Source of the DNA: a plasmid
Direction: 5' to 3' (one strand)
Sequence record: CP121101.1
DNA length: 64,000 nt
Part shown: in pieces, positions 23,406-41,829 of the stretch
Numbering within the stretch: the first letter of the stretch is position 1
Layout: the number at the start of each line of letters is the position of its first letter
Position numbers and translations under genes: made by a program
The notes under the pieces: model-generated
Told to the model about the DNA's origin: nothing
Seen by the model: only the letters and a program-made list of their open reading frames with translations
The model's database searches: none

Positions 23406-23670
23406 CGATCAAGTATCGGTACCGGTATAGCTCGCTGGCTTGTTGGTTCAACGGCACCAATACCCACTCCACGTCGGAATGACAGATGATGGAGAAGCAG
23501 TGATCGTTGATGATGAAAATATCACCGGGGAAGTGCCGGCATTTAGATAGGAAATCATCACGCTGAGCCAACGTCAGTGGCTTGCACTCTGCGTAGTTGA
23601 GGATTTTTTCCCGTTCGCAAACCTGCACCGGCAGGTCTATGGTGGTGGCGATTGCTTTACTGAAGTCCAT
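23365..23670 (-). CDS. hypothetical protein, 101 aa, overlapping the start of the downstream gene (operon)
   Basis: ORF; 41-bp overlap with 22606-23405. Confidence 0.4.
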   Translation of the reverse strand: MDFSKAIATTIDLPVQVCEREKILNYAECKPLTLAQRDDFLSKCRHFPGDIFIINDHCFSIICHSDVEWVLVPLNQQASELYRYRYLIDARELHHRSLTIH

Positions 23671-23907
23671 AGGGTCCCCCCATTTTTATTGATAAGTTGG
23701 TGACAGGATAAATTGCTTTTTTGCAATGCAAGGGGGGCCCATCCTGGGCGGCAAGTACCTGAACAGCTTCAAAACGAGAGGGCGAGTGCACCGGAACTAT
23801 GTGGCCGGTGCCTGGGAGTTTGTGATTGATTGGAGGGAAGGGGGGGTAATCAAATTCATCCTGCCGGTGGTTCTAGATCTAGGCAGGCAGGGGATGCAAT
23901 CCTCGGG

Positions 23908-24183
23908 CTATAGGGACTTCAGTAACAGTGCGCGGAGAAAGTCCTGCTGTGAAATTGAGCAAGCTTTGAACCCGCGAAACACACCATTATCGACCAGGAT
24001 TTCGTCATACCGGCCAATGGTATCTCGATAAACAAGACGTCGCTTTCCAATACCGCCGACCAACTCATCAACCGTGCGCACAACCTGTTCGGCTGAATTC
24101 GTGATTGTGGCGCAGAGGTCTAGATCCAGAAGGAGCAGCATGGTCTCGTCCTGGTACACGATTTCAAAAACGGGTGTTGGCAA
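23908..24183 (-). CDS. hypothetical protein, 91 aa
   Basis: ORF only. Confidence 0.35.
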   Translation of the reverse strand: MPTPVFEIVYQDETMLLLLDLDLCATITNSAEQVVRTVDELVGGIGKRRLVYRDTIGRYDEILVDNGVFRGFKACSISQQDFLRALLLKSL

Positions 24184-24271
24184 TTGTCTGCTCCCTATAC
24201 CTCTGTTGAGCCAACCCAGGTATCACCAAGGTAAGCATCCGCACCCCGGAGGCGCTCCAGAGGGATATCTA

Positions 24272-24580
24272 GGGAAGGTGCGAATAAGTGGTTAGCACCT
24301 TCGTCTTTGATAGTTAGGTCGATTTTTGACTCGTCCCATTTCTAACATTGCCCTATTTTCTTCAAAAATCAGGATTTATAACCATTTTCACCTCTTATCT
24401 GTGGGTATTCCTCGATTTTAGGTAGATCTTTTCTGTGCTCTTATCAATTGGTCTACTCGAAACAGGTTCGCTAGCGTAAACAACATCGCCAGTTGAATGT
24501 CGTTCTTCATCAGCCCCTTGTACCGCGCTTTGACGAAGCTGAGTCGCCCCCAGTTCCCTAGACACCTTACAGCCTTAAAA
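24272..24580 (-). mobile_element. remnant (~300 bp) of an IS5-family element: terminal IR GGAAGGTGCGAATAAGTGG plus the 3' end of the transposase gene, truncated by the adjacent IS3-family element
   Basis: IR matches IS5-type IR; 24460-24560 is homologous to the IS5 right-end region (AACAGGTT.GC.AGCGT.AA.AACATCGCCAGTTG...). Confidence 0.6.
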
Positions 24581-25560
24581 TGAGGCAATTATTGGGGGTG
24601 TTATGACCAGTCAGCGTTGTCCAGAAACATTCAAAATCGAAGCTGTGAAACAAGTCACCGAGCGCGAGCGGCCTGTGGCTTATGTTGCACGAGCCCTCGG
24701 GGTATCCAGCCACTGCCTGTATGTTTGGCTCAAGCAGTACGGTAAGCCTGCTGACCAACAGCATGGAGAGTCTGCCTTGCAGGCGGAGATACGCCGCCTA
24801 AAAAACCGAACTTCGCCAAGTCATAGAGAAGCGCAATATTCTAAAGGGAGCAGCGTACTTTGCCAGCGAGTCAAGGAAAGGTACGCGTTCATAACCTCCT
24901 GACTCGACCAGTACAATGTCGTTACCCTGTGCCAGACCCTGGGGATTCACCGAAGTGGCTTCTACGCGTGGCTGAAACAACCCGCATCGTTACGCCAGCA
25001 GGAGGACGAACGGCTGACAGGATTGGTCAAACAATCCTGGCTGGAAAATGGTGCTGTCTATGGTTACCGCAAGATCTATCGCGATCTCCGTGACATGGAG
25101 GAAGCCTGTGGGAAGCACCGTGTGGCCAAATTAATGAAGCGGGAGGGTTACGTTCGCAAACTGGTTATCAGCGTTGTAAGGAGCATTATGGTGGCAAGAG
25201 CCCGCTGGCGGCCCCGAACACGCTGGCACGTCAGTTTAAGGTTCCAGACCCTAACATCTCCTGGGTAACTGACATTACCTACATCCGCACTCAAGAAAGG
25301 TGGCTGTAGTGCTCTCGCCAGATCGTCTGGCTGGACGATGAAGCCACGCAGCCGGCGGACCTAGCGGTTGGCGCGCTCTTGATGGCTATCTGGCGCCGCA
25401 AGCCAAAGCAGCCGGTACTGGTGCATTCGGATCAGGGCAGCCAGTTTACTCGCTCACTGATCTTGCTGTCGCTGCCGTGGATATTACCGAGGAAATCAAT
25501 GCGCCAGATGATACCGGTGTCCGAGTCTTTGATATTGCCAAGTGAATTCTCAAATAGCCC
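24581..25560 (+). mobile_element. degenerate IS3-family element (orfA 24603-24902 with HTH; orfB fragments with YGYRKI and DDE region HSDQGSQFT), multiple frameshifts and a 3' truncation
   Basis: MTSQRCPETFKIEAVKQVTERERPVAYVARALGVSSHCLYVWLKQY...; LVHSDQGSQFT; ends approximate. Confidence 0.6.
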
Positions 25561-25683
25561 TGATTCTGGATCATTGGGTATCGTGTCTTGCTACATCATT
25601 GGTTTACCATAACAGCCAATCGAATCTGAATCCTACCCTCCCTACCGTGGGTGTGACATTGCAGTAGAACACCAAGGATCATC

Positions 25684-28371
25684 ATGGCCGTCAATCAGAC
25701 CAAAATCTCCGATGACTTGAAAGCGTTGGTCAACGCACCTGACAAATCCGAATTTATCTTTGGCTTTATGGCCGCCTATGGGCTGCCCAAGGCCACGATC
25801 ACGCATATCAAGCAAGGGGGAAATCGCAACCTGGCCAAAGAAGCGGGCCACGTTGGCATCAACTCAAAGTTCTACTTTCAGCCGGTGAATGAAGGGACCG
25901 ACATCGAGCTCCTTTTTGAACAGCGGATTGCAGCGTGTGCCAGCACCAAGCACAAATACCGCTTCGTCATCCTCACCGATTTTGTTCGCTTCCTCGCGTG
26001 GGACGTTCTGACTGAGGAGAGACTCGATACTGAGCTCGGCGAACTGTTCCGCGAATATGGTTTCTTCCTACCCTTAGCAGGCCTTGAGAAGGCGATTCTG
26101 GGTGCCGAGAACCCAGCCGATGTGAAAGCTGCCGAGAAGATGGGCAAGCTCTTCGATCTCATCAAGAGCCTCAACGAATTGAGTAGACCTGAGGATATTC
26201 ATGCCCTCAACGTATTTCTGACGAGGCTGTTATTTTGCCTGTTTGCCGAAGATACGGGGATTTTCGAAAAGGGTCAGTTTACCTCTGCCATCAAGGGCTA
26301 CACAGAAGACGATGGCAACAACCTCGATCAGTTCCTGAGTGACTTATTCGCTGTCATGAATAGCGAACCCAATAGTGACTTGCGCAAAAATCTGCCGTCT
26401 CATCTGGCAGCCTTCCCCTATGTAAACGGTGGGCTGTTCGCGGTGGATGAACCCATCCCGTCGCTTGGCAAGCAGGGCCGCAAGATCCTGCTGGAATGCT
26501 GCATGATGAACTGGGGGGAGATCAACCCGGATATCTTCGGTTCAATGTTCCAGGCGGTGATTGATGTCGAGCAGCGCGGGAATTTGGGCCAGCACTACAC
26601 CTCGTATAGCAACATCATGAAGGTGATCCAGCCACTGTTTCTGGATTCACTGCGGGCCGAGTTGGAAAAGAATCGAAAAAGTACCAATGGCCTCAAGAAA
26701 CTGCTGGTGCGGTTGGGTAACATCAAAGTTTTCGATCCCGCCTGTGGTTCGGGTAACTTTCTGATCGTCGCTTATAAAGAGTTGCACACACTTGAGCGGA
26801 TGATCATTCAAGCCCTACAACAGCTTGAACCACAGCAGGGCTTCTCCATGAGCAGCCTGCACCTTGATCAGTTCTATGGTATTGAGATAGACGACTTCGC
26901 CTGTGAAATCGCCCGCCTTGCACTCTGGCTGGCCGAACATCAGCTTAACAAGCAGTGGGAGCAAACCTTTGGTTATGCACGCCCAGCGCTACCGCTGAGA
27001 TCATCCGGCAATATCGTGAGCGGTAACAGCCTAGTGCTGGATTGGCATAACGTTTGTCCCAAAGGCATTGAGGATGAAGTCTATGTGATCGGCAATCCAC
27101 CTTTCTTGGGAACATTGGGACGCAGCGATGAACAGCGATCCAATATGCAGGCAGTATTTGGTGATGTCGTTTTGGGTACTATGGATTTTGTCGCCTGTTG
27201 GTTCTGGAAGGGAGCTAAGTACATCCAGAACTCCTTCGCTGAGCTGGCATTGGTCTCAACGAACTCTATCTGCCAAGGTGAGCAGGTGGCTGCACTCTGG
27301 CCTCCAATTTTTAACTTGGGGCTGAATATTCACTTCGCTTATCCGACCTTCCCGTGGGCTAACAATGCACGTGACAAGGCAGCAGTCCATGTCGTTATTG
27401 TAGGTCTTTCCGCAAGGGACAAATCGAGACGGTTATTTCAATTTGTTAATGGTGAATGGCATAGCTACAACGTCAGCAATATCAGTCCCTACCTGGTGAA
27501 AGGCAGCAATATCGCTATAGCACCACGAAACAAGCCACTTACAGAGGGCATTCCACCACTAAGTAACGGTAGTAAACCTACGGATAACGGTCATCTGTTT
27601 CTAAATAGGGAAGAATATGATGAACTGCTAAAGATTGAACCTCAGGCTAAACGCTGGATCAAAAAATTCTTGGGTGCAGACGAGTTTTTGAACGCTAAAG
27701 AGCGCTGGTGCTTGTGGCTAGCTGGCGCTACCGAAGAAGACTTACGGGGTATGCCTATAGTTCAAAAGCGGGTGGAAGCGGTACGAGTCTTTCGTCTTGC
27801 AAGTACAAAAGAAAATACGGTTAAACGAGCAGAGATTCCCCATCTATTCGATCAGGACAGGCAACCAACCTCAGGAAGTTATATTCTGATGCCTCGCGTT
27901 TCATCATCAGAGCGTCGTACCTATGTTCCATTAGGGTTTTACAGCGTTGATGTCATTTCATCTGATCGCAACTTCATCCTTCCCAATGGTTCGCTCTATG
28001 AGTTTGGAGTTCTTTCATCTCTGATTCATAACGATTGGATGCGACTGGTAGCCATGCGTCTTAAAAGCGATTACAGCTACGGAAATAAGGTTGTATATAA
28101 CACATTCCCTTGGCCAACAGCGTCTATTGCTCAACAGACAGAAATAGAACGGATAGCGGAAGAATTGCTTCTTACACGGGAAGATTACCCTGGCAAGACT
28201 TTGGCCGAACTCTATGACCCCGACAAAATGCCTGCTGGGCTGCTTGAAGCACACCGGGCACTGGATAGCGCTGTCGATAAGCTATATCGGGATCGCCCCT
28301 TTAAGGATGCTGCGGAGCGGGTAAGCCATCTGCTCGGGCTCTATGAAAAGCTAACCGCTGCTACCCTCTAG
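25684..28371 (+). CDS. MmeI-family Type IIL (IIG) restriction-modification enzyme: single polypeptide with N-terminal PD-ExK-like nuclease region, gamma-class N6-adenine methyltransferase (motif I DPACGSGNF, motif IV NPPF) and C-terminal TRD; 895 aa
   Basis: collinear conservation with MmeI: KAAEKMGKLFD, LTRLLFCLFAEDTGIFEK, LAAFPYVNGGLF, RGNLGQHYTS, VFDPACGSGNFL, DQFYGIEID, VIGNPPFLG, WCLWLAGA, YNTFPWP, LAELYDPDKMPAGLLEAHRALDSAVDKLY. Confidence 0.85.
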   Translation: MAVNQTKISDDLKALVNAPDKSEFIFGFMAAYGLPKATITHIKQGGNRNLAKEAGHVGINSKFYFQPVNEGTDIELLFEQRIAACASTKHKYRFVILTDFVRFLAWDVLTEERLDTELGELFREYGFFLPLAGLEKAILGAENPADVKAAEKMGKLFDLIKSLNELSRPEDIHALNVFLTRLLFCLFAEDTGIFEKGQFTSAIKGYTEDDGNNLDQFLSDLFAVMNSEPNSDLRKNLPSHLAAFPYVNGGLFAVDEPIPSLGKQGRKILLECCMMNWGEINPDIFGSMFQAVIDVEQRGNLGQHYTSYSNIMKVIQPLFLDSLRAELEKNRKSTNGLKKLLVRLGNIKVFDPACGSGNFLIVAYKELHTLERMIIQALQQLEPQQGFSMSSLHLDQFYGIEIDDFACEIARLALWLAEHQLNKQWEQTFGYARPALPLRSSGNIVSGNSLVLDWHNVCPKGIEDEVYVIGNPPFLGTLGRSDEQRSNMQAVFGDVVLGTMDFVACWFWKGAKYIQNSFAELALVSTNSICQGEQVAALWPPIFNLGLNIHFAYPTFPWANNARDKAAVHVVIVGLSARDKSRRLFQFVNGEWHSYNVSNISPYLVKGSNIAIAPRNKPLTEGIPPLSNGSKPTDNGHLFLNREEYDELLKIEPQAKRWIKKFLGADEFLNAKERWCLWLAGATEEDLRGMPIVQKRVEAVRVFRLASTKENTVKRAEIPHLFDQDRQPTSGSYILMPRVSSSERRTYVPLGFYSVDVISSDRNFILPNGSLYEFGVLSSLIHNDWMRLVAMRLKSDYSYGNKVVYNTFPWPTASIAQQTEIERIAEELLLTREDYPGKTLAELYDPDKMPAGLLEAHRALDSAVDKLYRDRPFKDAAERVSHLLGLYEKLTAATL

Positions 28372-28377
28372 CCAATT

Positions 28378-30430
28378 TTGACAAGGATTCAAGCATGGAA
28401 ATTCATCTTGCAAGTGACCTATGCCCAGAACGGGCAGAGCTCGGCGCTTAACGGCATGGGAATGCGGGAGATGCAGGCCCGCGCCTTCGCTCAACGCAAC
28501 AGCCCCTATCTGCTTATCAAAGCGCCACCCGCCTGCGGTAAATCCCGTGCACTGATGTTTTTGGGGCTGGACAAGCTGCTCAATCAAGGTCTGCGCAAAG
28601 TCATCGTCGCGGTGCCTGAGATGTCTATCGGCGCATCGTTTAAAGACACTGCGTTGACCGAATACGGATTCTTTGCGAACTGGCAGGTTAAACCTGAAAA
28701 CAATCTCTGCATTCATGGCGGTGAAAAGAGCAAGGTGGCCGCATTTAAGCGTTTTATGGAGAGTGATGACCAGATCCTTGTCTGCACCCACGCCACTCTG
28801 CGTTTCGCTTTTGACGAGGTAGATATCGCCTCGTTTAACGATTGCCTGATTGCCATCGACGAGTTTCACCATGTTTCCGCCAGTGAAGATAGCCGCCTCG
28901 GAGCGCGCTACTCGACGGCTTAATCCAGCAGTCCAATGCACATATCGTTGCCATGACGGGATCTTATTTCCGTGGCGATACTGTGCCTATCCTGACACCA
29001 GAGGATGAAGCCAAGTTTACCAAGGTCACCTACACCTATTACGAACAACTGAATGGCTATGAGCACCTGAAATCCCTCGGCATTGGTTACCATTTTTATC
29101 AGGGTAAATACATCGGTGCTCTGCCTTCGGTGTTAAACGCTTTCCTGAAAACCATTATTTACATCCCGAACGTGAATTCTAGTGAGTCCACCAAGGACAA
29201 ATATACCGAGGTCGATGCGATCTTGGATGTGCTGGGCGAGGTGCAGTCGAAAGATCCCGACACTGGCATCTACTTGGTGAAACGACATGAAGATGGCAAG
29301 CTGCTCAAAGTAGCCAATCTGGTGGATGACGATAATGAACGCCCCAAGGTGCAGGCTTATTTGCGCACCATTCAATCGGCTGATGATATGGACATCATCA
29401 TTGCTGGCTTGGCATGGCAAAAGAAGGCTTTGACTGGCCCTATTGCGAGCATGTGCTGACCATTGGCTATCGCAGTTCGCTGACCGAAGTCGTGCAGATC
29501 ATCGGTCGTGCGACCCGTGATTGTCCTGGTAAGACCCACGCTCAGTTCACGAACCTGATTGCCCAGCCCGATGCCCAGGATGACGATGTGAAGGTGTCGG
29601 TCAACAACATGCTCAAGGCGATCACGACATCCCTGCTGATGGAGCAGATCCTAGCCCCCAGTATTCAGTTTAAGCCTCGCTCGCAGTGGACTGGGGAGGC
29701 ATTGCCACCCAATACCGTGCTCGTTGGTGATGCGACCGTGCCGGTCTCGCAAACAGTGTTAGATATTCTCAATGGTGGCAAAGAGGAGATCCTGGCTGCA
29801 CTGATGGCCAAGGAGAAGGTGGTCAAAGAGGCAATTACTGAAACAGCTCCGCCCGAGGTATTTACTCAGTTAGAACTGCCCTCGGTCATTCAGGAGCTCT
29901 ACCCCGATCTATTGCCCCATGAGATAGAGCAAGTTCGTTCCGGCCTGCTACAAAGCATGTATATCAATCAACAGGGAGGGCTGATCAATGAGAGTGACTT
30001 GCCTCCCGATGCCGAGATTGTAGGAAGCCCGAACCCCACCTCTATCGGAGGGGCAAGCCCCGATGCCGCCAAGGATCAAGCAACCGCCAGTAAGCAGTTC
30101 TTAAAAATCGGCGAGAAGTTTATCAACATCGACAACCTGAGCATCGACCTGATCGAATCGGTTAACCCGTTCCACGGGGCCTATGAAATCCTCTCCAAAT
30201 CCGTGACGGCCACCATGCTCAAGACCATTCAGGAAGCGGTCAGCGCCAGCAAGTCACAACTCTCCGAGGAGGAGGCCGTCATGCTATGGCCGAGGATCAA
30301 GGAGTTTACTCAGCAAAACCAGCGTGCGCCTTCGTTGCATGCACCTGATCCCATCGAGGTACGACTGGCAGAAGCGCTGGCCTACATCAAACAGAAGAAA
30401 CAACAATCTGCGGCTAAACAGGAGGACTAA
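28378..30430 (+). CDS. SF2 helicase with ResIII-type N-terminal ATPase domain (~680 aa), reconstructed across two apparent frameshifts (~28920-28955 and ~29415-29460); ~270-aa C-terminal extension of unknown function
   Basis: Q-motif/Walker A QARAFAQRNSPYLLIKAPPACGKS, motif II AIDEFHHV, motif III SAS, helicase-C motifs IIAGL.KEGFDWP and motif VI QIIGRATR; 6-nt gap to the upstream MmeI-like gene. Confidence 0.7.
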
Positions 30431-30433
30431 GTA

Positions 30434-31716
30434 ATGATCCTGTTGCGATCGCATCAGCTCAAACCCAAAGCGTCTCTTGAAGATATCTTTGCCGAAGACG
30501 ATGTATTGGGTCTGCTCGATGTAGAGCCCCTAAAACCGAAAAGCGCGCCAGTTGACCTAGTGAGCAACCAGTTTGGGGATATCGTGGCGTTTTTTGAACA
30601 ACACGGTAGAGCCCCCCAAAACTCGACCTGTGCCGATATGCCCGAGAAGCGTCTTGCAAGGCGCTTGCAGGCGATACGCACGGATCCAAAGCAATGCAGT
30701 GCCCTTTCAGGTCAGGATATCCATGGTCTGCTGGCAGACATAGAAGTAGTGGGGATGGTTGCCGAGGAGCATGAGCAATATCCTGCCAGGGGAGTAGGTG
30801 TTGAGACTGTTAATGCACCCACCGTTGATACGTCGGAGCTGGTGACCTCGCTTGACGATATTTTTGCCGATGATGACCTCGGGTTATTGGATTTTGATAC
30901 CCCTGATATTTCAGCATGCAGCATGTGCCTAGAGAGAAAAAGGAGTTACCCGACGAGATAGCCCAGCGTCAGCCCTGTCCGGATTTTTCCCGCTTTGCAC
31001 CGCTGTTTGAGACCGTGAAAGCAGGTCTGCAAGGCCAAGAGTTCTCCCTCGCGCGCTATCGAAACGAACACGGTTTTCAGGTGGGTGATTTTTTCATATT
31101 GAATGGGGTTATGGGCTATGTGCATAGTGCCGGGGAGCGGCTAGAGCAGTACGAGCGATACAACGCACGACTTCACCTGGTTTTCGATAATGGAACAGAG
31201 CTGTACATGCTCTACCAGTCACTGACCCAGGGGCTTATTCGTGACAAGGAAGGTCGTAAGGTCATGCTAGGTGACAAACTCCTCTTGCCAAATGATGCAC
31301 CTATTCCAAGCGGTTTTGTATATGTACTCGCGACAAAGAGCACTGACCCGGTATTGATGCCCTTCAAGCAAAATCTCTACAAAATAGGTTTCACCGAAAG
31401 CTCTGTTGATGAGAGGATAAAGAATGCCGAGAAGGATAGAACTTTTCTGCAAGCACCAGTCCGTATTGTGACGACTTTCCAATGCTTCAACATGAACACG
31501 CACAAGTTGGAGACCTTGGTGCACGGCTTTCTCGCCAAGCAGCGCCTCGATATAACCTTAAAAGGGCAGGATGGCACCAGCTACACCCCGAGAGAGTGGT
31601 TTTACACTCCATTGGCAACAGTTCTTGAAGTTATTCAACACATTTTGGATGGGACTATTTCGCAGTACCGAATGGACAACACCACGGGGAAGATTGTTGC
31701 CAAAAAACTTCCATAG
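30434..31716 (+). CDS. protein with N-terminal acidic repeat motif (DIFAEDDVLGLLD ... DIFADDDLGLLD) and C-terminal T5orf172 (GIY-YIG-like, PF10544) domain. It is probably one ~425-aa gene with a frameshift in an A5 run at ~30940 (ORFs 30434-30961 and 30916-31716).
   Basis: GFVYVLATKST...YKIGFTESSVDERIKNAEKDRTFLQAPVRIVTTF...THKLETLVHGFLAKQRL...PREWFYTPL matches the T5orf172 pattern; 3-nt gap after the helicase gene. Confidence 0.6.
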
Positions 31717-31873
31717 TTTTACGTTTTGACCCTTTGGAAAGTCGAGGAAGATACTCAGAACATGCTGAAATTCTTATCTACCCTAATCGCACTGGCCGCA
31801 CCGCTGGTGGTGTGGATAACGATGTCGCTGGTCATGATTGTTTGACTGATTTATCATCAAAAAAGGAGTGATT

Positions 31874-32163
31874 ATGTTCAAAATTACTGGACTAGACACA
31901 CTGAAAAAAAAGAACTGGCTGAAACCCAACGTGCTTTAGCCGAATTGGATGGTGAACTGGGAACTGTCAGTTTCAACCCTCACAATCCGGCCAGTATCGA
32001 AGCGGCAATTCAGTCTGTTTATCGCATGGTTGATGAGCGCGCAGGACAATACACATCCAATCCACTCGTAGAACAGCTACTCGAGCAGATGAAAGAAGCA
32101 TATCGCGAAAATATTCTTCAAAACGCCGCCGAAGCTAGGTTCAAGACTGACGAGAATGAATGA
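31874..32163 (+). CDS. hypothetical small protein (~96 aa), start reconstructed through an A8 run at ~31910
   Basis: MFKITGLDTLKKK|ELAETQRALAELDGELGTVSFNPHNPASIEAAIQSV... Confidence 0.35.
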
Positions 32164-32417
32164 TGGCCCAAGACATTTTTTTAGAACTTAATAATGCCGT
32201 TTTGGACTTACAAGCTTCACAGCTACAAACCTACGAGCGACCTCTAAAGAGACTTGCCCAGTTACTGAAACACCCAGAGCTCAACACCTACAACGCAGAA
32301 TTAACTTGTGGGCTGGATCTAGAGGCCTTTATCAATAAAAGTGAGCAAACCGGCGGAAGTATGGTGGGTAGTGCGCAACTTGCTTGGCCGGAAGATCCTA
32401 GGCAAGTGCTGGGCTGA
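32160..32417 (+). CDS. hypothetical small protein, 85 aa; start overlaps the previous stop (ATGA)
   Basis: ORF, translationally coupled. Confidence 0.35.
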   Translation: MMAQDIFLELNNAVLDLQASQLQTYERPLKRLAQLLKHPELNTYNAELTCGLDLEAFINKSEQTGGSMVGSAQLAWPEDPRQVLG

Positions 32418-32419
32418 CA

Positions 32420-33056
32420 TTGCTTCTTATCGAGAAATTGGGGGATGACCCGCGCTATGCAACCAACTTTAGCCATCACTTCTTCTACTCCGGTAAAAAG
32501 ATCATAGCTGGTATCCACTCTCTCACTGGGCAGCTAATTGTTCCCTTTGTCCGAGATTACAGAAATTATGTTCAGTCCAAAGGAAACACCCAAACCGTGT
32601 TTAAACCCCGCCTCTCCCGCAAAGTCTTTATAGTTCACGGCCATGACGAAGGTGCGCGCGAGACTGTAGCCCGTTTCCTAGAGCGTATCGATTTAGAGAC
32701 CCCGTCATCCTGCATGAGCAGGCCAACCAAGGACGAACCGTCATAGAGAAAGTCATCGCGCATAGTGATGTCGGTTTTGCCGTTGTTTTGCTCACACCCG
32801 ATGATGAAGGGTGTGTTAAAGGCGGGACCCTAGAACCTCGAGCGAGGCAAAACGTGCTGTTAGAGCTGGGCTACTTCATTGGCAGCCTGGGCCGAGATAA
32901 GGTGTGTGCTTCAAGAGGGGCATGCTGGAAATCCCGAGTGACTTTGCGGGTGTAGTCTGGGAGACAATGGATAGTAGTGGTGGCTGGAAGCAGGCTCTTG
33001 CCCGTGAACTAGCCGCGGCAGGCTACGATATTGATTGGAATAAAGTGATGCGCTGA
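32420..33056 (+). CDS. TIR-like nucleotide-binding domain protein (PF10137/CAP12-like family), ~210 aa, reconstructed across two apparent frameshifts (C4 run ~32712, G4 run ~32925)
   Basis: KVFIVHGHDEGARETVARFLERIDLE|PVILHEQANQGRTVIEKVIAHSDVGFAVVLLTPDDEG...NVLLELGYFIGSLGRDKVCA|LKRGMLEIPSDFAGVVWETMDSSGGWKQALARELAAAGYDIDWNKVMR. Confidence 0.6.
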
Positions 33057-33103
33057 TAAGTATTGAGATAGTGATGCCTCCTATCAGTTGAATATCGCTT
33101 ATC

Positions 33104-33517
33104 ATGGATCCCATTGAGATCCACCCCATCAAACCAAACGCAAGTTTAATTGCATCAATTGGTCACAACCCACACTTATCTAACGCAGAACATATGACAC
33201 ATAAAATCATCGATACCGCACTTTTCTTTAGTTATGAAAACATGCTCACTCGCTTCAAGCGGGCGAAGAGTGAAGACACCTTGGACACGATGTATCGGGG
33301 GGCCGTCTACAAAGCCAATTCAAATCTACAGGGTAGCGACCTATTTCTGGCGCAAATCGCTATCGAGAGAGCACTGAACCAGTGTCAGCAAGATTTCGAC
33401 ACATCTCACACAGGTATGACCCGCAAAGTTAACCACGCCATCAAGCAAGCAGAAGAACCTTGCAAGCAGTACAACCCAGAAGAGGAGATGCGGCGACTCC
33501 TCTCCAGCATGAGCTAA
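33104..33517 (+). CDS. hypothetical protein, 137 aa
   Basis: ORF only. Confidence 0.4.
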   Translation: MDPIEIHPIKPNASLIASIGHNPHLSNAEHMTHKIIDTALFFSYENMLTRFKRAKSEDTLDTMYRGAVYKANSNLQGSDLFLAQIAIERALNQCQQDFDTSHTGMTRKVNHAIKQAEEPCKQYNPEEEMRRLLSSMS

Positions 33518-34771
33518 ACGAACCCATCCGAGCATCGATATTGTTATTACCTGACTAAATAACTCAAGATGAGCACCTTGCGATGACTGACTCGCAGTCG
33601 ATTTTGGTTAAATGGTTAAGTAGTTTTTATATAAATACAGGTAATTGGTATACATGGGAGAGCGTTTCAAGATATTCGCTCCTCAACAGATATAATCGTT
33701 TTATAGCAATAATTTTTAACCGCCTAACCATGAGCACCTCAAACTCACTAATGGCGTGGGTTAGAGACTGATTAAGTGGCACAGAGCCAGTTTAACCAGT
33801 GTCTACTCACAATAAACCAAGATGTTTTTTAATTGCCGTTGGTAACGGCAAGTTATCCACTTCATTGAACGACCTACTAGGCCTAGAGATGCCTGTGTGG
33901 ATTATCAGTCGATGATAGGCTTTGGTATCGTAAGCACCGCCTGCAAAATTTGTACCCAGCGTACAACGCAATAACTAGCATGGTGCTTTTTTCCTAGCAA
34001 AATTGGCAATCACGGGTAATTTGGCCGAGGTAATTAAGTGCCCTCTTGAAAGTTTAAAAGCTTTCTCCCACACAGGCGTTGGTATTCGCACCTTTCTTAG
34101 CCTGCTCAAGCGTCAGCGGCAAGCCGGCAGGTGGTGTTGTGGGTTTGTTCATGGCCTGATGATGCCGGACAGGTGGGATCAGGCAAGGAGCAACAGAGGA
34201 TCAAGGGACGATCGTCTCACTTTTCCCTATCAATACCCTCTGGGTGAACAGTTACGCCCAAACTCCATACCCAGAACGCTCAGCATAGTCCCTAGAATCG
34301 CGTAGGTGAGCATTTACTGGCTGGTGAGTGGCAATATATGCCTCCGCACCTCAATTCAATACAGAGCCTCTGGTGGCTGGTCTGTCGATGCAATATAAAA
34401 CACCACAAGGGACTCATATGAACTTTTTTGAAATATTTTCAACTTTACCACTTGAAAATTTTCGAAATATGTCCACGTATTATAATTGAGAGCAATGAAA
34501 TTCTTATCTCTATTTCCCTATGCTTTCTCCTCTGAGAATCCTCTGTAATACCTCATATTTTAGCCACTATCAATACTCAAAGATGAGAATCAATGTCAAA
34601 CAAGATGAATGAGGGTGCGTTCTCTAGTATGGCTGACTGCATCGCTCGTCGATGCAATATAAAAACGTCGGAATGAATTTTTTCACGAAAGAAAATTTTC
34701 ACGCTAGTGATCTTGTTTTTTTGTGAACAAAAATACCAATACCACTTTTTAAAAAAATTAGATTATGAATT

Positions 34772-36042
34772 AACCCTTACCCATCCCCTCATATGAGCGA
34801 GGCGTGGCGCGGCTTCTGCGCTATCATCCTGCTCTTTGACCGGCAAATACCTGACTACTGACCTCCATGCTCGACCACCACACTATTCTCCAGCACATCG
34901 ATGACATATTGGCCAGGACAGGACATGCATGCCAAGCGCGTCCTCTCTCTGGCAAATGCAACCCAGGGCGTGCTCAGCTCCGGCTCTCTCGCCATCCATG
35001 CCATTGGCAATGGCCTCTCCGTTGCCCGCAGCATTGACCGCAAGCATGCCGTCAAACAGGTCGACCGCCTGCTGACCAACACCAAGCTCAACGTCTGGCT
35101 CCTGTTTCAGGATTGGGTGCCCTATGTCGTTGCCGAGCGCAAAGAGATTGTCGTCTCCATGGACTGGACCGAGTTTGACCAGGATGACCACTGCACCCTG
35201 GTCATCAGCCTGCAAACCAGCCACAGCCGTAACACGCCCCTGCTCTGGCAAACCCACCAGAAGTCGCTACTCAAGGGCAAGCGCAATGAGCATGAGCGCA
35301 CCTTGCTGGCCAAACTCAAGGCGTGCCTGCCAGCCGGCATCTTCACCACGGTGGTCGCCGACCGTGGCTTTGGCTACCGGGAGATGTTCGAACTGTTGGA
35401 AACCGAGTTCGATTTTGCCTATCTCATTCGTTTTAAAGGCAATATCCTGGTCGGTCATGCCGATGCAGAGCAGGTTCCTGCCCGTCAATGGCTCACCCCG
35501 ACCGGGCGAACGCGCACCCTCAAAGAGGTCGAGATGACCTGGACCCGTCATCCGGTCGCCCGCGTCTATTGCTGCCAGAAGAGTGGTATGAAGGAGCCCT
35601 GGTTTTTAGCCAGCAACCGCACCGACCTGAGCGCGGCCAGGGCACTGGGCCTGTACGGCAAGCGTTGGGGCATTGAAACCAGCTTCCGTGACATCAAGGA
35701 CTACCGTTTTGGCATGGGGATGGGGCAGGTACGGCTGAGCAGTCCGGCACGCCGTGACCGGCTGTTCCTGTTCAGCGCGCTGGCGATAGTGTTGCTGACG
35801 CTGCTGGGTAAGGCGGGTGACAGTATAGGGCTGGAGCGGACCATCAAGGTCAACACCAGCAAGAGCCGGAACTATTCGTTCTTCCGTCAAGGGTGCATTT
35901 ATTACGAATTATTACGACGATGAAGGAGGCGAATGCCCGACCGCTGATGGAGAAATTTGTTTATTACTTGAAACAGCACCGTTTATACACCAGCACGCTT
36001 GGCATTATTTGAGTCTTAAAAAATGAGGGGATCCCTAAGGGT
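34772..36042 (+). mobile_element. IS4-family (IS10-group-like) insertion sequence, ~1.27 kb, imperfect 21-bp terminal IRs (AACCCTTACCCATCCCCTCAT / rc ACCCTTAGGGATCCCCTCAT)
   Basis: IRs at 34772-34793 and 36023-36042 flanking a DDE transposase gene. Confidence 0.65.
34866..35923 (+). CDS. IS4-family transposase (IS10-like); N-terminus MLDHHTILQHIDDILA joined to ORF 34901-35923 across a frameshift at ~34920
   Basis: collinear with IS10 Tnp: AKRVLSLANATQGVL, VSMDWTEF, VVADRGFG, YGKRWGIETSFRDIKD. Confidence 0.7.
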
Positions 36043-36935
36043 ATAGTGGGGGCTGAGTTGTTCGCGTTTCATCATCCATGCTCTGGTGTCTCGACCTCGG
36101 GATGCGAAGTAGACCTTTCCCAACCGCCCCCTGATTAATCCTATCGATCACCTGCATATGTGCATCGCTACGGGGGTCGTGCTGCTAGTTTCTGAATGGA
36201 TCTCATTGCTGTATGCCTTTGGGAGAGAAGTCCGCCAGCATGACTCCACCCTTCATATAGCGGACATCATCCCGCCAGATCCGATGTAGCAGGAATTCGA
36301 TCTGGGCAAGCAACTCACGGGTATCAGCAGTGGGTATCGGCAACCGTGTGGATATTTGGTTGGCGTAGTGTGTTTCCCACTCCGCAAATGGGCTCGAACG
36401 TATGAATACTGTGACATGGCAGCAGTACATGCCCTCTGCCCTGAGTTTCTCAGCAGACCGTTCCATGTAGCCAGCGAGAGCCTCCCGCATGGGGCCAAAT
36501 TCGGTGATCCGCTTCCCGAAAGAGCGGGAGCAGATGATCTGCTGCTTGGCCTGGGCCATCGGCTCCAGTTCGGCGCAGGGAATCCCCCGCAGTTCCTGTA
36601 CTGTGCGTTCGACGACGCCATACCGGCGCCGCAGGCTCTTGGCATCAGGCGCTACTAGGCCAGCTACGGTGTTGATGTCTTGGGCTGTCATCCGTTGTTG
36701 AGCCGAATGCACAAACCTGGAGATGAGAAGCGGAGTTTGGTTATTGTCCCAACGTAGGATTACGACGGCTGGCTGGGTTGTCGTGACCCAGAGTTGGTAC
36801 GAACCTACCTTGTTCAGCAGGAAGCAGAAGTGTTGATGGGCTCGCCAACAAGCATAAAAAAGCTTTTGATAACAGTCGCTTCACTCACTCGATAAAATAT
36901 ATGGTGATTTTTATATACTCCCAAGGAAGTTATTT
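36017..36935 (-). pseudogene. umuC/rulB/mucB-like Y-family DNA polymerase gene remnant. The N-terminal ~125 codons are missing, there are internal frameshifts, and the last codons plus stop are supplied by the IS10-like IR.
   Basis: ...RRRYGVVERTVQELRGIPC...ICSRSFGKRIT...AEKLRAEGMYC...GGVMLADF... and, in another frame, KVYFASRG.DTRAWMMKREQLSPHYTLR matching the UmuC C-terminus (LYFAGQGIQQQWQMKRAMLSPRYTTR). Confidence 0.65.
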
Positions 36936-37747
36936 TTAGATGTCTGGTGCTAAGTTGAGTTTAAATTCCTTAAGCATCTCAAATGCTGCGGGATCCTTCG
37001 GTACAGGTAGTTGGTTGGCTTTCAGAACAGCTGCCCTACCGGACCTACAGACAGATGGGTCACCCTGGCCGTTATCCACTGAGTGGACAAAGCCACTGCT
37101 GGTAAGCTTCACACCGATAGTACAAGTTTTACCCCGCATTGTAGGATCTAATATCATATATCGATTAATCGTTGCGCTGATGAGGGCTGCATATTTGTCT
37201 ACGTCGCTTCTGGTTGTCACCGATGCGGTCTGGCTAAGGGAATAGGCTGCCATCTCTTTTTGCAGCCTTGCTTCTTCTGCCATCTGGGCTGTGGTTTTTG
37301 ACTTAGCTGGAGCTTGCATACTCGCAAGCGCCGCCATACAGCCAACCTTCCATTCATTTAAGCGTACCTGCCTACTCTCAATTACCTCTTTGAGATCGCC
37401 AGCAGCCAAGACAGATTAGTATATTTTAATGTTTCCATTGGATCTCTTTCGAGTTTCCCCTCAACCAAAGCCATCGCTCTGCGCTCTTTTATTGCATACT
37501 GCTCAGTATTAATTTCATTGAGCTTATTTACCATTTGCTCTGTTTTATCTGCTTCGGTCCTTACGCTATCAAACCCTTTACATGTCTTGAATCCTGACCA
37601 AGAGTTGGCATCAGCTGACTGTGCAGCTTCAACTTTGATGCCAATGATCGCCATAACAGCTACCAACGTTAATCCTTGTACTTGGCGTGCGTTAACTTTA
37701 AAAACACCCCCTCCCAAAAAACAGTATGTCTGAGCATGTGATTTCAT
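36936..37747 (-). CDS. secreted protein with signal peptide, coiled-coil region and C-terminal TolA domain-III-like fold (~270 aa; ORFs 37382-37747 and 36936-37409 joined across a frameshift)
   Basis: C-terminus RGKTCTIGVKLTSSGFVHSVDNGQGDPSVCRSGRAAVLKANQLPVPKDPAAFEMLKEFKLNL aligns with TolA-III GKTCTLRIKLAPDG...GDPALCQAAL.AAK.A.IP.PP...YE.FKN..L.F. Confidence 0.5.
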
Positions 37748-37883
37748 TTTTTTCCTATTTTTCTTTGTAGTAAAAAATTAGTAAACCCATCTCTAAAATG
37801 CATGTAACTAGCAAATATAAAAATAATTATCTGAGCAATACCTAGATACATATGTGGTTTCAATAAAACCGCAAAATATAGCA

Positions 37884-38186
37884 TCAATGAGACAACGACA
37901 CATAAAAATCGCTTGCAGCAGTATAGTAACTAAATTGACTTTCATTTGTTGATAATTTTATAGAACTTACAGATTTAGATATGTTGGCAGTTATTTGCCC
38001 AAATATTATGCATGCTGCTAACGACCAATCTGATGCTGTCAGTATATCTTGATAGTTTGAGCTGTATAATTTTACAAATACAAGTAAAATAAATGGGGTT
38101 ATTATGTAAATGTACGTAGCCTTGAGTTCCGCCATTATGGATTTTTTTTCGGAGTCAGAAATTTGATAACTCATGTTGATATCCAT
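37884..38186 (-). CDS. small membrane protein, 100 aa (two TM segments), in an AT-rich island
   Basis: ORF overlapping the 3' end of the upstream gene by 32 bp; TM helices YIYIITPFILLVFVKLY and LAACIIFGQITANI. Confidence 0.5.
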   Translation of the reverse strand: MDINMSYQISDSEKKSIMAELKATYIYIITPFILLVFVKLYSSNYQDILTASDWSLAACIIFGQITANISKSVSSIKLSTNESQFSYYTAASDFYVSLSH

Positions 38187-39018
38187 GGCTCCTTATTATA
38201 GAGTTAATCTTAATTATCTTTGCATTTCTTATTTCTGTTTGCCCTTTTCCTGACGGCGTTTTATATATGTCGTATGTTATATCAGCATCAATCATATCTT
38301 TAGGGCCTATGGGTAGTATTAGTCCCTGCTGATATCGTTCTAACCATTCATTGTTTACAATGCGCGCACTAAAACTCCGTTCCATAATAGGACTTTTAAA
38401 AGTCCACACTGAATGACCTTCACCTTCATTCACAGCAATCTTTACATATAGTTTGTCAGTTATGGCATAGCTTTCAGATGCACCTAAAAACATTGCTTTA
38501 GGATTTCCCGTGAAACGCCACCTACTATTCAATGTGGCAACATTACCATTGTTAAGTGCTGATGTGAATTCTACATGTTCATTTGGTAATAGTTTCGAGT
38601 TTGCTTCGGATAATTTTGACAATACTGTAGCCAAATTTTTTCTGTCTACATATGGATCTAATTGTGATTCTGAGTTTTCATATAATTTGCTCTCTAACTT
38701 TAATGCAAGTAATTCGATGTCGGATTCTGACTCCGTGTGTTCTACGAGGTCGTCAAATAGTCGAAAACTACTATCTATAACTGTGTTAGCAACTGCACCT
38801 AATAATTTTTCTTTCAGTATAGATAGCTTTCCTATTACAGAGCTAATTGCTATATCATCCAGAATCAGTTCAAAATCACACTCTTGGTCAAGAGCGTTAG
38901 TAATAAGCTGTCCTAGATCCTTGTACCCATTGATATATAAAGCCATAGCTTGAAATACTTCGGATGGGTTATTTCTGTTTTTTAGAAAATCTATCTTAAT
39001 TGACAAATCAGAGTTCAA
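38155..39018 (-). CDS. hypothetical protein, 287 aa, AT-rich codon usage (foreign island)
   Basis: long clean ORF in a visibly AT-rich segment (37.75-39.15 kb); no family recognised. Confidence 0.55.
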   Translation of the reverse strand: MNSDLSIKIDFLKNRNNPSEVFQAMALYINGYKDLGQLITNALDQECDFELILDDIAISSVIGKLSILKEKLLGAVANTVIDSSFRLFDDLVEHTESESDIELLALKLESKLYENSESQLDPYVDRKNLATVLSKLSEANSKLLPNEHVEFTSALNNGNVATLNSRWRFTGNPKAMFLGASESYAITDKLYVKIAVNEGEGHSVWTFKSPIMERSFSARIVNNEWLERYQQGLILPIGPKDMIDADITYDIYKTPSGKGQTEIRNAKIIKINSIIRSHGYQHELSNF

Positions 39019-39169
39019 TTATTTTCCCCTTTGAAACATTTTAATAATGCTCCTAGTACTGTAAGCCACAACCTGAAAAATATAATTTTAATGCCAATCT
39101 AACATACCCATTGTAATCTGTACCTGTTCACACATTCCTTAATCATGATTTCAAGTTCGTGCGGAACAA

Positions 39170-40344
39170 TCAAAGCCCCGCATTGTCATCTTTCTTAAGA
39201 TCCTTATCGCACATATCTTTGTTGGAGAAGGCGTATTCTACTGTCAAATAACCGGTGTCTCCGCTGGCTGCATTCGCCATCAGGTACACATCAGTCAAAT
39301 TCCACGGCAGGGCTTTTTTTTCCCCCTTCCAGGAGCTTATCAGATAGCGATCTTTCTTGTTGAGCGCCATCATCCAATACTTACCTTCTTTCCAAATTGA
39401 TCCCGCCGTCAGGGGAAATCTAGCTTCTTGGCCTTGCCGTATTTTTCCGACAATATCTTATCAAGTTCATCAAATTCGCTTTTGACATCAAAACCATAGC
39501 CATTGGTCACAATGTCTTTGCCAATACCCTTAACCCAGCACAGCCCCGCATTATCCGAGATTTTGACGGCATAGTTTTCAAACTGGCTGTTGGGTTTGGG
39601 TGGATTGTCGAACAAATAAATGCCATTACCTTGCGGTTTCAGCTGGCCGGCAAACATGTCTACGGTCATCCCCATCGCCAAGCCAAAAGGGCCATCCGAC
39701 GCGACGATTTTACTAGTTTCAGCGACTGACACTGGTGCCGGAGCAGGAGTCAGTGTTGGTGCGGGGGATGCCGCCTGTGAGGCTGGCGTTGCAGCCGTTG
39801 CAGCCACGGCAGTGTTGGCCGGTGTAGCGGCGGACTTGCCCACTATCAACAAGCCGTATTTGGCTGACAAGCGTTGTTGCTCAAGCTGCGCAAGCGTTTG
39901 CTCGATAGTCGCGACCGTAGTCTGACTGAGGGCTGCCAGCAGGCCGCCGCTGTATTGCGCCGCCGTGGCCTTGGCATTGTCAAGTTTCAACTTGGTTTGC
40001 ACGATGTCGCCTTCCAGCTGCTTGGCTCGCTCTGGATCCGCTTTACTGGTGGGCGTTACCACCGTCACCTTCGTGCCGGTCTCAATAGCCTGGATACGTT
40101 GATTGACCACATCCTGACTCAGTTTCAGGGTCTCTTCTCGCATTTGCATGATGGTCAAGATCAGGCCGCTGCCCATTTGCGACATCTCGCCCGTTACACT
40201 GATGATCTCCTGCCCCAGTGCATCCCGCTCTTGCTTGAGCTGACCGACAAGCTCTTTTTCTTCTGTTGTTAATGTCTTTTGCTGATCACAGGCCGACATC
40301 ATAAAAACTGAACACACCAACAGTGCAACGTGCGTCTTTTTCAT
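39170..40344 (-). CDS. lipoprotein with coiled-coil region and Ala/Pro-rich linker (~390 aa; ORFs 39409-40344 and 39170-39373 joined across a frameshift in a C4 run)
   Basis: signal/lipobox MKKTHVALLVCSVFMMSAC; ...KYGKAKKLDF|PLTAGSIWKEGKYWMMALNKKDRYLISSWKGEKKALPW. Confidence 0.5.
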
Positions 40345-40634
40345 TTTTATCCTCTGTTTCTATATTATTAATTCATGATTAATATATAAACGAATAATGT
40401 CATACGGATAAATCAACACTAACCAGTCTGTCAGAAATCGGAATTCTTTAAAAGATTTATAGTTAAATGCGGGATTTTGATAGTAAAAGATCTGCCTAGC
40501 TTCACACTTTTGTGCTGCGTAGGGGCAGCAGTAAACAGCCTGCTCTCACCATGCGACAGCTAGTTTTGTATGCCATCTCCGTCCCTTAAAATATTTCTGT
40601 ATAGAGCTTGGATACTGCTATCAACTAGGCTAAG

Positions 40635-41829
<1,195 letters not shown>

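What the first reader, a model, noticed from the sequence alone, without database searches (positions are those of the whole stretch)
25684..31716. Three-gene operon: MmeI-family Type IIL RM enzyme tightly coupled to a ResIII helicase and an acidic-repeat/T5orf172 protein
MmeI-family enzymes are normally solitary single-polypeptide R-M-S systems. Here the 895-aa MmeI-like gene is followed after 6 nt by an SF2 (ResIII-type) helicase with a ~270-aa unknown C-terminal extension. After a further 3 nt comes a protein with a duplicated acidic motif and a GIY-YIG-like T5orf172 domain. The spacing implies translational coupling and co-function. This looks like a composite defence system in which methylation and recognition by the MmeI-like module are joined to a translocase and nuclease-like partner, analogous in logic to BREX, DISARM or Type ISP. 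I do not recognise this exact gene triad as a described system.
Basis: partly seen in the sequence, partly recalled or inferred. Interest (0 to 1): 0.8.

Follow-up and report, generated by a model that had tools for sequence, protein, structure and literature searches.

The report
Known YeeA-YeeB-YeeC restriction-like gene triad
This is a plasmid-borne copy of a three-gene cassette first described in 2009 (a nuclease-less MmeI-like DNA methyltransferase, a helicase and a GIY-YIG nuclease), and the breaks in two of its genes are almost certainly assembly errors, so it is ordinary rather than new.

Summary
The three genes are at the stated coordinates, in the stated order, on one strand. Two points in the finding are wrong.

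(1) As given, the helicase is split over three reading frames and its true start is cut. The T5orf172 gene is split over two frames. All these breaks sit on a 500-bp lattice of indels that runs through the whole window. Three independent contigs that are 99.8% identical carry intact genes. The breaks are therefore assembly artefacts.

(2) The "MmeI-family Type IIL enzyme" has Q-P-V where MmeI has its catalytic E-M-K. It is the nuclease-less YeeA/DnmA type, not an R-M-S enzyme.

The triad is not undescribed. Morgan et al. 2009 reported that MmeI homologues lacking PD-ExK are invariably flanked by a DEAD-type helicase and a GIY-YIG protein (B. subtilis yeeA-yeeB-yeeC), and they proposed a type I-like system. 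Later work found m6A methylation and no defence in B. subtilis, and yeeAB-dependent phage resistance in Vibrio crassostreae.

I confirmed the linkage in 80 loci from many phyla: 72 have the methyltransferase upstream and 76 the nuclease downstream, and the exceptions lack enough flanking sequence.

The co-function inference is supported. The novelty claim is not.

The parts
25684..28371 (+). yeeA/dnmA-like gene: MmeI-family gamma-class N6-adenine methyltransferase with a target-recognition domain and a nuclease-dead N-terminal domain. It is 895 aa as given and 894 aa in relatives.
   Evidence: All five MmeI Pfam domains match. E = 3.7e-203 to MmeI 5HR4. It is identical to P0123 (Aeromonas) except for one extra Ser at aa 740, a 3-nt insertion at 27901.
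25873..25896 (+). Place where MmeI has its PD-ExK catalytic E80-x-K82. Here the sequence is YFQPVNEG, so the motif is absent.
   Evidence: HMMER alignment to 5HR4 puts window 64-71 against MmeI 78-85, LIEMKSRG. The family consensus is YFKPVTEG in 56 sequences.
26734..27105 (+). Methyltransferase catalytic core: SAM-binding motif DPACGSGNFL (26734-26763) and motif IV NPPF (27094-27105).
   Evidence: Both are at least 95% conserved across 56 family members.
28395..30430 (+). yeeB-like SF2 helicase/translocase gene, 676-677 aa when intact. It is interrupted in the window by indels at 28402 (+1), 28903 (+2) and 29405 (+2). The last roughly 280 aa are a conserved extension of unknown fold.
   Evidence: Motifs are at 28525-28548 (I), 28858-28872 (II), 28953-28979 (III) and 29495-29518 (VI), and are nearly invariant in 80 sequences.
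30434..31716 (+). yeeC-like gene, 427 aa when intact. It is interrupted by a 1-nt deletion at 30909. The model shows two short motifs in disordered linkers, a helical domain, a small beta domain, then a GIY-YIG/T5orf172 nuclease domain.
30473..30892 (+). Duplicated linear motif L(D/E)DIFxxDxLGLL: copy 1 at 30473-30520, copy 2 at 30848-30892.
   Evidence: Both copies are present in Clostridium, Bacteroidota, Ureibacillus and candidate-phyla-radiation homologues. They are modelled as short helices in low-confidence linkers.
31312..31602 (+). GIY-YIG-like catalytic core: GFVYVL, LYKIGFT, ERIKNAE, REWF.
   Evidence: Pfam T5orf172 2.2e-13 and MUG113 3.2e-16. The residues are conserved in 72 sequences and invariant in the 38-sequence alignment.
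24273..25683 (+). Upstream part of the same mobile segment: a decayed IS3-family transposase remnant with no intact gene.
   Evidence: The 99.8% match to the chromosomal island L090 starts at window 24270. ORF fragments in L090 4920-5929 read like IS3 OrfA/OrfB (recognised from my own knowledge, not scored with an HMM).
31945..33517 (+). Three small genes that travel with the triad in Aeromonas: a YuaX-like gene, a TIR-domain protein (PADLOC candidate PDC-S35) and a 137-aa ORF. They are also broken in the window by lattice indels at 31904, 32411, 32695 and 32911.
24273..41825 (.). Accessory insert of 17.5 kb that is absent from the otherwise 99.7%-identical plasmid pAER-f909. It holds the triad, the TIR gene, two DDE transposases, a umuC-type fragment and a TolA-C protein.

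Best explanation
The region is a plasmid-borne copy of the YeeA(DnmA)-YeeB-YeeC cassette. This is the 'second set' of MmeI homologues described by Morgan et al. 2009.

Shown here:
- Gene 1 is an MmeI-type methyltransferase with a recognition domain. Its N-terminal domain has lost the PD-ExK nuclease residues.
- Gene 2 is an SF2 ATPase with all core motifs.
- Gene 3 carries a GIY-YIG/T5orf172 nuclease domain with its conserved residues.
- The three are inseparable across phyla.
- The frameshifts in genes 2 and 3 are artefacts of the assembly, so the real plasmid almost certainly encodes intact proteins of 894, 676 and 427 aa.

Inferred mechanism (about 0.45 likely):
1. YeeA binds an asymmetric 6-7 bp site and methylates one adenine on one strand. 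B. subtilis DnmA does this at GACGAG.
2. On an unmethylated site, YeeA's dead nuclease domain instead docks YeeB and YeeC.
3. YeeB translocates DNA using ATP.
4. YeeC, tethered through its duplicated L(D/E)DIFxxDxLGLL motifs, cuts the DNA. This would be a three-subunit counterpart of Type I and Type ISP restriction.

The cassette moves on small integrase- or IS-associated islands. Here it sits in a 17.5-kb accessory insert of a MOBH Aeromonas plasmid, next to a TIR-domain defence candidate.
For: Identity:
- Pfam architecture.
- Loss of E-x-K against MmeI 5HR4 and across the family.
- Helicase homologues of 671-677 aa sit with the same neighbours in E. coli/Enterobacteriaceae integrase islands, in Aeromonas plasmids including pAsa4, and in 80 loci from Proteobacteria, Bacteroidota, Firmicutes, Verrucomicrobiota, Planctomycetota, Campylobacterota, Spirochaetota and the candidate phyla radiation. 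Of these, 72 have the methyltransferase upstream and 76 the nuclease downstream, all on the same strand.
- Gene overlaps or gaps of 12 nt or less are common.

Literature:
- Morgan 2009 describes exactly this triad and this model, and found no endonuclease activity for YeeA alone.
- DnmA makes m6A at GACGAG.
- yeeAB inactivation restores sensitivity to one phage group in V. crassostreae.

Artefact: lattice indels and three intact near-identical loci.
Against: - No biochemical or genetic test exists for this copy.
- In B. subtilis, deleting dnmA, yeeB or yeeC changed neither transformation nor infection by three phages, and the DnmA site is not avoided in phage genomes. Restriction activity is therefore not general, or it is conditional.
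- The Vibrio evidence covers yeeA and yeeB only. I could not compare those sequences with this family directly.
- The roles given to the N-terminal domain and to the duplicated motif are inference only.
- The helicase model was too poor (pLDDT 58) to say anything about its C-terminal extension.
- Attributing the lattice to a polishing program with 500-bp windows rests on my own knowledge, not on the assembly's methods record.
Confidence: 0.8

Rival explanations
1. Relic locus. In this plasmid the helicase and nuclease genes are truly frameshifted pseudogenes. Only the methyltransferase works, as an orphan epigenetic enzyme. This is what was proposed for B. subtilis DnmA.
For: The sequence as deposited has four frameshifts in genes 2 and 3, while gene 1 keeps its frame. 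Fernandez et al. 2023 argue that DnmA is an orphan from a defunct system.
Against: - All four frameshifts, and the in-frame insertion in gene 1, lie at coordinate mod 500 = 401-409. This is the same phase as the indels in unrelated backbone genes when compared with pAER-f909.
- Indels are about as frequent as substitutions: 9 indels against 5 mismatches in 10.1 kb. This is unlike natural divergence.
- Three independent assemblies with otherwise identical DNA have intact genes.
Confidence: 0.05
2. A solitary Type IIL (MmeI-type) restriction-modification enzyme that merely happens to lie next to an unrelated helicase and nuclease.
For: PADLOC's Type IIG model PDLC03598 matches the whole protein at 4.4e-298. 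PGAP labels some copies 'type IIL restriction-modification enzyme MmeI'.
Against: There is no E-x-K at the catalytic position. Morgan 2009 found no cleavage by YeeA or by a second member of this set. The neighbours are invariant across phyla.
Confidence: 0.02
3. A co-functional triad that is not a restriction system. For example, it could be a methylation-guided regulatory or repair module, or a defence that senses something other than unmethylated sites and acts by abortive infection.
For: - No restriction phenotype and no site avoidance in B. subtilis.
- DnmA methylation changes promoter activity.
Against: - yeeAB-dependent phage resistance in V. crassostreae.
- The cassette lies on mobile islands beside other defence genes (TIR PDC-S35). 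In other phyla it has Gabija-like, Fic and RhuM-like cargo inserted between yeeA and yeeB, as is seen in Type I loci.
Confidence: 0.13

Closest known systems
B. subtilis YeeA(DnmA)-YeeB-YeeC and its homologues (Morgan et al. 2009; Nye et al. 2020; Fernandez et al. 2023; V. crassostreae yeeAB in Piel et al. 2021)
   Same: The three domain architectures, the gene order, the strand and the tight spacing are the same. The methyltransferase lacks PD-ExK. Firmicutes members (Bacillus thermotolerans, Ureibacillus, Clostridium, Anaerovirgula) are in the same helicase family at 52-56% identity.
   Different: This copy is on a conjugative-type Aeromonas plasmid. According to Fernandez et al., B. subtilis YeeB and YeeC lack stretches of the C-terminal parts that the Vibrio proteins (and this family) retain. 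I could not align the B. subtilis or V. crassostreae proteins themselves.
MmeI-family Type IIL (Type IIG) restriction-modification enzymes
   Same: The helical spacer, gamma-class m6A methyltransferase, recognition domain and C-terminal domain are homologous over residues 64-892. One-strand methylation of an asymmetric site is likely shared.
   Different: No PD-ExK residues are present, and the published test found no cleavage. The gene is never solitary and is always followed by the helicase and the GIY-YIG gene.
Type ISP enzymes (LlaGI, LlaBIII) and Type I systems
   Same: They combine an N6-adenine methyltransferase with recognition, an SF2 motor and a nuclease. Type ISP uses one-strand methylation of asymmetric sites. 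The best, though insignificant, PDB sequence hits of the helicase are LlaGI and LlaBIII (E 0.04-0.07).
   Different: Here there are three separate polypeptides. The nuclease is GIY-YIG rather than PD-ExK/Mrr-like. There is no HsdS subunit. The similarity is one of logic, not demonstrable homology outside the methyltransferase.
BREX (PglX) and DISARM class 1 (DrmMI)
   Same: The methyltransferase domain is distantly related (DrmMI 1.5e-34, PglX 5e-08 in PADLOC).
   Different: NCBIfam BREX models score 22-31 bits against cut-offs of 400-900. No PglZ, BrxC, BrxL, DrmA, DrmB or DrmC genes are in the locus.

Membership tests
MmeI-family Type IIL restriction-modification enzyme | N-terminal PD-ExK endonuclease motif (MmeI D70...E80-x-K82) in the same polypeptide | tested here: not met
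   Window Q66-P-V68 align with MmeI E80-M-K82. The consensus of 56 relatives is YFKPVTEG. The D70 region did not align at all.
MmeI-family Type IIL restriction-modification enzyme | Gamma-class N6-adenine methyltransferase, MmeI-type recognition domain and C-terminal domain | tested here: met
   Pfam MmeI_Mtase 9e-99, MmeI_TRD 8e-69, MmeI_C 5e-26. Motifs DPACGSGNFL and NPPF are present.
MmeI-family Type IIL restriction-modification enzyme | Solitary gene with no conserved partner genes (Morgan 2009) | tested here: not met
   The helicase and T5orf172 genes follow in every locus with enough flank.
YeeA(DnmA)-YeeB-YeeC triad | MmeI homologue without a nuclease motif, followed on the same strand by a DEAD-superfamily helicase | tested here: met
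   The definition is in PMC2731913.
YeeA(DnmA)-YeeB-YeeC triad | Third gene with GIY-YIG/T5orf172 motifs directly after the helicase | tested here: met
   [not shown]
YeeA(DnmA)-YeeB-YeeC triad | Direct sequence relatedness to the named B. subtilis and V. crassostreae proteins | not tested
Membership rests on the shared definition, on Bacillaceae and Vibrio members of the same helicase family, and on the published alignment statement.
YeeA(DnmA)-YeeB-YeeC triad | m6A on one strand of an asymmetric site; phage or plasmid restriction | not testable with these tools
   This needs methylome and plaque assays. The published data are mixed: defence in Vibrio, none in B. subtilis.
Type I restriction-modification | Separate HsdS specificity subunit and an HsdR that carries both motor and PD-ExK nuclease | tested here: not met
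   No HsdS-like ORF lies between or beside the three genes. The recognition domain is fused to the methyltransferase. The nuclease is a separate GIY-YIG protein.
Type ISP restriction-modification | Nuclease, helicase, methyltransferase and recognition domain in one polypeptide | tested here: not met
   There are three ORFs with stop codons at 28371 and 30430. Intact relatives have three genes.
BREX / DISARM | PglZ with BrxC and BrxL, or DrmA, DrmB and DrmC, beside the methyltransferase | tested here: not met
   PADLOC and Pfam scans of all ORFs of the locus and its flanks found none. NCBIfam BREX scores are far below cut-off.

The most novel reading that the evidence does not exclude
The cassette may not be a plain restriction system. 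It could be an unclassified defence class. In that reading, a nuclease-dead MmeI module guides a separate motor, and a GIY-YIG nuclease is held by two copies of a short L(D/E)DIFxxDxLGLL docking peptide. Its activity might be conditional, for example coupled to transcription or replication through YeeC's Tudor/SH3-like domain. That would explain why B. subtilis shows no classical restriction and no site avoidance while Vibrio shows phage-specific protection. My evidence does not exclude this, but it supports it only through weak fold hits and motif conservation.
Probability: 0.15. Interest if true: 0.55.

Novelty: already known. Interest (0 to 1): 0.2.

Why it matters
It matters mainly as a correction.

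- Automated tools label the first gene as a complete Type IIG/IIL restriction enzyme (PADLOC model PDLC03598, PGAP 'MmeI'). They ignore the two obligate partners, so these loci are systematically misread.
- The cassette is highly conserved: the helicase is more than 50% identical from Aeromonas to candidate-phyla-radiation bacteria. It is common on mobile islands and plasmids, yet its mechanism has not been worked out since the 2009 proposal, and the two published genetic tests disagree.
- An intact Aeromonas or enterobacterial copy would be a good model for settling this.
- This particular record should not be used for that purpose. Its frameshifts are assembly artefacts. Any pseudogene count or 'orphan methyltransferase' call made from this contig would be wrong.

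Tried and rejected
- PADLOC gave no named multi-gene system. It found only the Type IIG model for gene 1, weak PbeA hits for the RecA2 part of the helicase, and PDC-S57 for the T5orf172 domain.
- NCBIfam gave only sub-threshold BREX PglX, Dnd-restriction and UvrB hits.
- PDB sequence searches found nothing significant for the helicase (best LlaGI, E 0.04) or for YeeC.
- The AlphaFold2 model of the helicase had mean pLDDT 58, because only relatives at least 72% identical could be aligned. I judged it too poor for a fold search, so the C-terminal extension remains unassigned.
- Rfam found nothing in 20000-36000. The 1.4 kb upstream of gene 1 is an IS3 remnant, not an RNA gene.
- Promoter and terminator scans gave fewer hits than shuffled sequence, so they say nothing about operon structure.
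- I first suspected a pseudogene-rich genome or a real relic. I rejected this once the 500-bp lattice appeared.
- I considered whether a 7-nt tandem repeat (cagcatg cagcatg) at 30911-30924 caused the gene 3 frameshift. The phase is wrong, and the intact relatives carry the same repeat.
- Literature searches for a newer system name (MmeI with T5orf172; T5orf172 with methyltransferase, helicase and anti-phage; MmeI-like with helicase; yeeA with yeeB and defense) found no paper after 2023 that renames or characterises the triad.


Full report
**What is in the sequence**

ORF listing and translation show one long intact ORF at 25684-28371 (895 aa). After it, the coding sequence is broken.
- The helicase lies in three frames: 28378-28923, 28953-29459 and 29414-30430.
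- The T5orf172 gene lies in two frames: 30434-30961 and 30916-31716.

Pfam results:
- The first protein matches all five MmeI domains: MmeI_N 1.3e-22, MmeI_hel 3.2e-26, MmeI_Mtase 9.2e-99, MmeI_TRD 8.3e-69 and MmeI_C 5.2e-26.
- The first helicase fragment gives weak ResIII and DEAD hits.
- The last fragment matches T5orf172 and MUG113.

It passes silently over four frameshifts.

**The frameshifts are assembly artefacts**

A search with the conceptually joined helicase found thousands of intact relatives of 671-677 aa. One is 96% identical. Alignment of its contig L001 located the window's extra or missing bases.

The window's own protein fragments are on record for a 211,418-bp NCBI contig of Aeromonas plasmid type. 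The breaks are therefore in the public record.

The flanks of the window are 99.7% identical to plasmid pAER-f909 of Aeromonas sp. ASNIH4. Listing the indels against that plasmid showed that they fall about every 500 or 1000 bases:
- at window coordinate mod 500 = 394-403 between 12395 and 22902;
- at 207-226 between 42219 and 61710.

The MmeI-like protein equals an Aeromonas protein (P0123) apart from one extra serine. Three independent contigs that encode P0123 carry intact genes of 894, 676 and 427 aa. They differ from window 24270-34377 by 5 mismatches and 9 indels. Eight of the nine indels sit at mod 500 = 401-411: 27901, 28402, 28903, 29405, 30909, 31904, 32411 and 32911. By my calculation, chance would give this with a probability of about 5e-13.

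A 500-base period is the default window of a widely used long-read consensus polisher. That is my own knowledge, and I could not check the assembly's methods. Whatever the cause, the breaks are not biology. The true helicase start is the ATG at 28395, 23 nt after the upstream stop. The TTG at 28378 is not the start.

**The first gene is not a restriction enzyme**

In the HMMER alignment to the MmeI crystal-structure sequence (5HR4), homology runs from residue 64 to 892. Window Y64-F-Q-P-V-N-E-G lies opposite MmeI L78-I-E-M-K-S-R-G. The catalytic E80 and K82 are therefore Q and V here. In an alignment of 56 homologues taken from loci of many phyla, the consensus at this place is YFKPVTEG. The methyltransferase motifs are at least 95% conserved in the same alignment.

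**The triad is obligate**

Neighbourhood look-ups found the same three genes in two settings:
- after an integrase in Enterobacteriaceae islands;
- in large Aeromonas plasmids, including pAsa4.

A scan of one genome per species with a helicase alignment found at least 569 relatives and returned the best 80 loci. These come from Gammaproteobacteria, Betaproteobacteria, Desulfobacterota, Campylobacterota, Bacteroidota, Firmicutes, Verrucomicrobiota, Planctomycetota, Spirochaetota, Melainabacteria and candidate-phyla-radiation lineages. Helicase identity is 51-97%.

tblastn of the window's other two proteins against these loci gave the following:
- An MmeI-like gene lies upstream on the same strand in 72 loci. 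The other 8 loci have at most 2.1 kb upstream.
- The T5orf172 gene lies downstream in 76 loci. The other 4 loci have at most 0.35 kb downstream.

In about 18 loci, 0.7-4.5 kb of unrelated cargo sits between the methyltransferase and the helicase. Judged by eye from the sequences, this cargo looks like RhuM-like, Fic-like, Schlafen/AlbA-like ATPase, and OLD-ATPase plus UvrD genes. By my recollection, this habit is also known for Type I loci.

**It is already described**

- Morgan et al. 2009 (PMC2731913) split MmeI homologues into two sets. One set has PD-ExK and no conserved neighbours. The other lacks it, "such as YeeA ... flanked by two conserved genes": a DEAD-type helicase (YeeB) and a GIY-YIG protein (YeeC).
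- They found no cleavage by YeeA or by a second member of this set. They proposed that the methyltransferase gives specificity and modification while its altered N-terminus recruits the helicase and nuclease, like Type I but with one-strand modification.
- Nye et al. 2020 showed that DnmA (YeeA) makes m6A at GACGAG and does not affect transformation.
- Fernandez et al. 2023 re-derived the conserved synteny and found no protection against three Bacillus phages.
- Piel et al. 2021 found that inactivating yeeAB in Vibrio crassostreae 7F1_18 restored sensitivity to one phage group.
- I found no later paper that renames or solves the system.
- PADLOC has no system model for it and scores the first gene as Type IIG at 4.4e-298.

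**What can be said about mechanism**

The helicase keeps motifs I, II, III and VI almost invariantly across 80 sequences. Its C-terminal 280 aa are also conserved, but no library matches them. Its model was too poor to use.

For YeeC, a model of the 91%-identical P0142 (pLDDT 76) shows, in order:
1. two short helices in disordered linkers, which are the two copies of L(D/E)DIFxxDxLGLL and are conserved even in Clostridium, Bacteroidota and candidate-phyla-radiation homologues;
2. a helical domain;
3. a small beta domain;
4. a C-terminal alpha/beta domain.

The most economical model is the published one: a three-subunit, ATP-dependent, methylation-sensitive nuclease. I give about 0.9 to membership of the triad, about 0.95 to the artefact reading of the frameshifts, and about 0.45 to the translocation-coupled restriction mechanism.

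**Context**

- The triad lies in a 17.5-kb insert (24273-41825) that is absent from pAER-f909.
- The first 10.1 kb of this insert are 99.8% identical to a chromosomal Aeromonas island. In that island the match begins just after a tyrosine recombinase gene.
- The shared segment comprises an IS3 remnant, the triad, a YuaX-like gene, a TIR-domain protein that matches PADLOC candidate PDC-S35 at 8e-71, and a 137-aa ORF.
- The remainder of the plasmid insert holds two DDE transposases, a umuC-type fragment and a TolA-C protein.
- Close DNA relatives are rare in complete E. coli genomes, at 4 of 5,426.

**Verdict**

The co-function inference is supported. The 'Type IIL enzyme' label and the novelty claim are not. 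This is a known kind of system in an error-laden record.

Noticed in passing
window 12146-62567 (for example 12395, 13403, 15396, 16401, 18395, 19394, 20897, 21895, 22902; 42219, 44725, 46224, 52223, 53226, 53723, 55221, 56221, 57211, 60707, 61710): Small indels relative to near-identical references recur on a 500-bp lattice through the whole window. They are about as frequent as substitutions and fragment many genes. This looks like a window-boundary artefact of long-read consensus polishing in the deposited contig.
   Followed up: yes
window 9298-12113: A TnAs1/Tn3-family transposase (988 aa when intact) is split into 529-aa and 408-aa ORFs at 10887. 10887 mod 500 = 387, close to the lattice phase, so this is probably the same artefact.
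   Followed up: partly
window 31945-33517; L090 12184-13825: In Aeromonas the triad travels with a YuaX-like gene, a 298-aa TIR-domain protein (PADLOC candidate PDC-S35, 8e-71; Pfam CAP12-PCTIR_TIR) and a 137-aa ORF. In the window these are broken by indels at 31904, 32411, 32695 and 32911.
   Followed up: partly
window 24273-25683; L090 4587-6000: The 1.4 kb upstream of the methyltransferase gene have no intact gene. They hold fragments that read like IS3-family OrfA/OrfB. In the chromosomal island the match to the plasmid starts just after a tyrosine recombinase gene.
   Followed up: partly
L036, L040, L052, L054, L057, L062, L067, L070, L073-L075, L080, L083, L084, L086-L089 (between the MmeI-like gene and the helicase gene): About 18 of the 72 loci that show the methyltransferase gene carry 0.7-4.5 kb of unrelated cargo inserted between yeeA and yeeB. 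By eye this includes an OLD-type ATPase plus a UvrD-like helicase (Gabija-like), RhuM-like, Fic-like and Schlafen/AlbA-like ATPase genes, and, in Psychrobacter, small lipoprotein-like genes.
   Followed up: partly
L010-L089: The helicase is 51-62% identical between Aeromonas and Bacteroidota, Firmicutes, Verrucomicrobiota, Planctomycetota and candidate-phyla-radiation bacteria. This is unusually high conservation for a mobile defence-type gene and points to wide horizontal spread.
   Followed up: no
L008 8070-9236 (K. pneumoniae plasmid NZ_CP072951.1) and about 30 other Klebsiella/Raoultella/Citrobacter plasmids: A lone T5orf172 gene, 89.7% identical to the window's over query 4993-6208, sits next to ISApu1 without the methyltransferase or the helicase. 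It is probably a stranded remnant of the cassette.
   Followed up: partly
[not shown]
   Followed up: no
window 24273-41825: This 17.5-kb accessory insert is absent from the 99.7%-identical plasmid pAER-f909. Besides the triad it holds two DDE transposases (34901-35923, 40730-41683), an ImpB/UmuC C-terminal fragment (36203-36712) and a TolA-C domain protein (36936-37409).
   Followed up: partly
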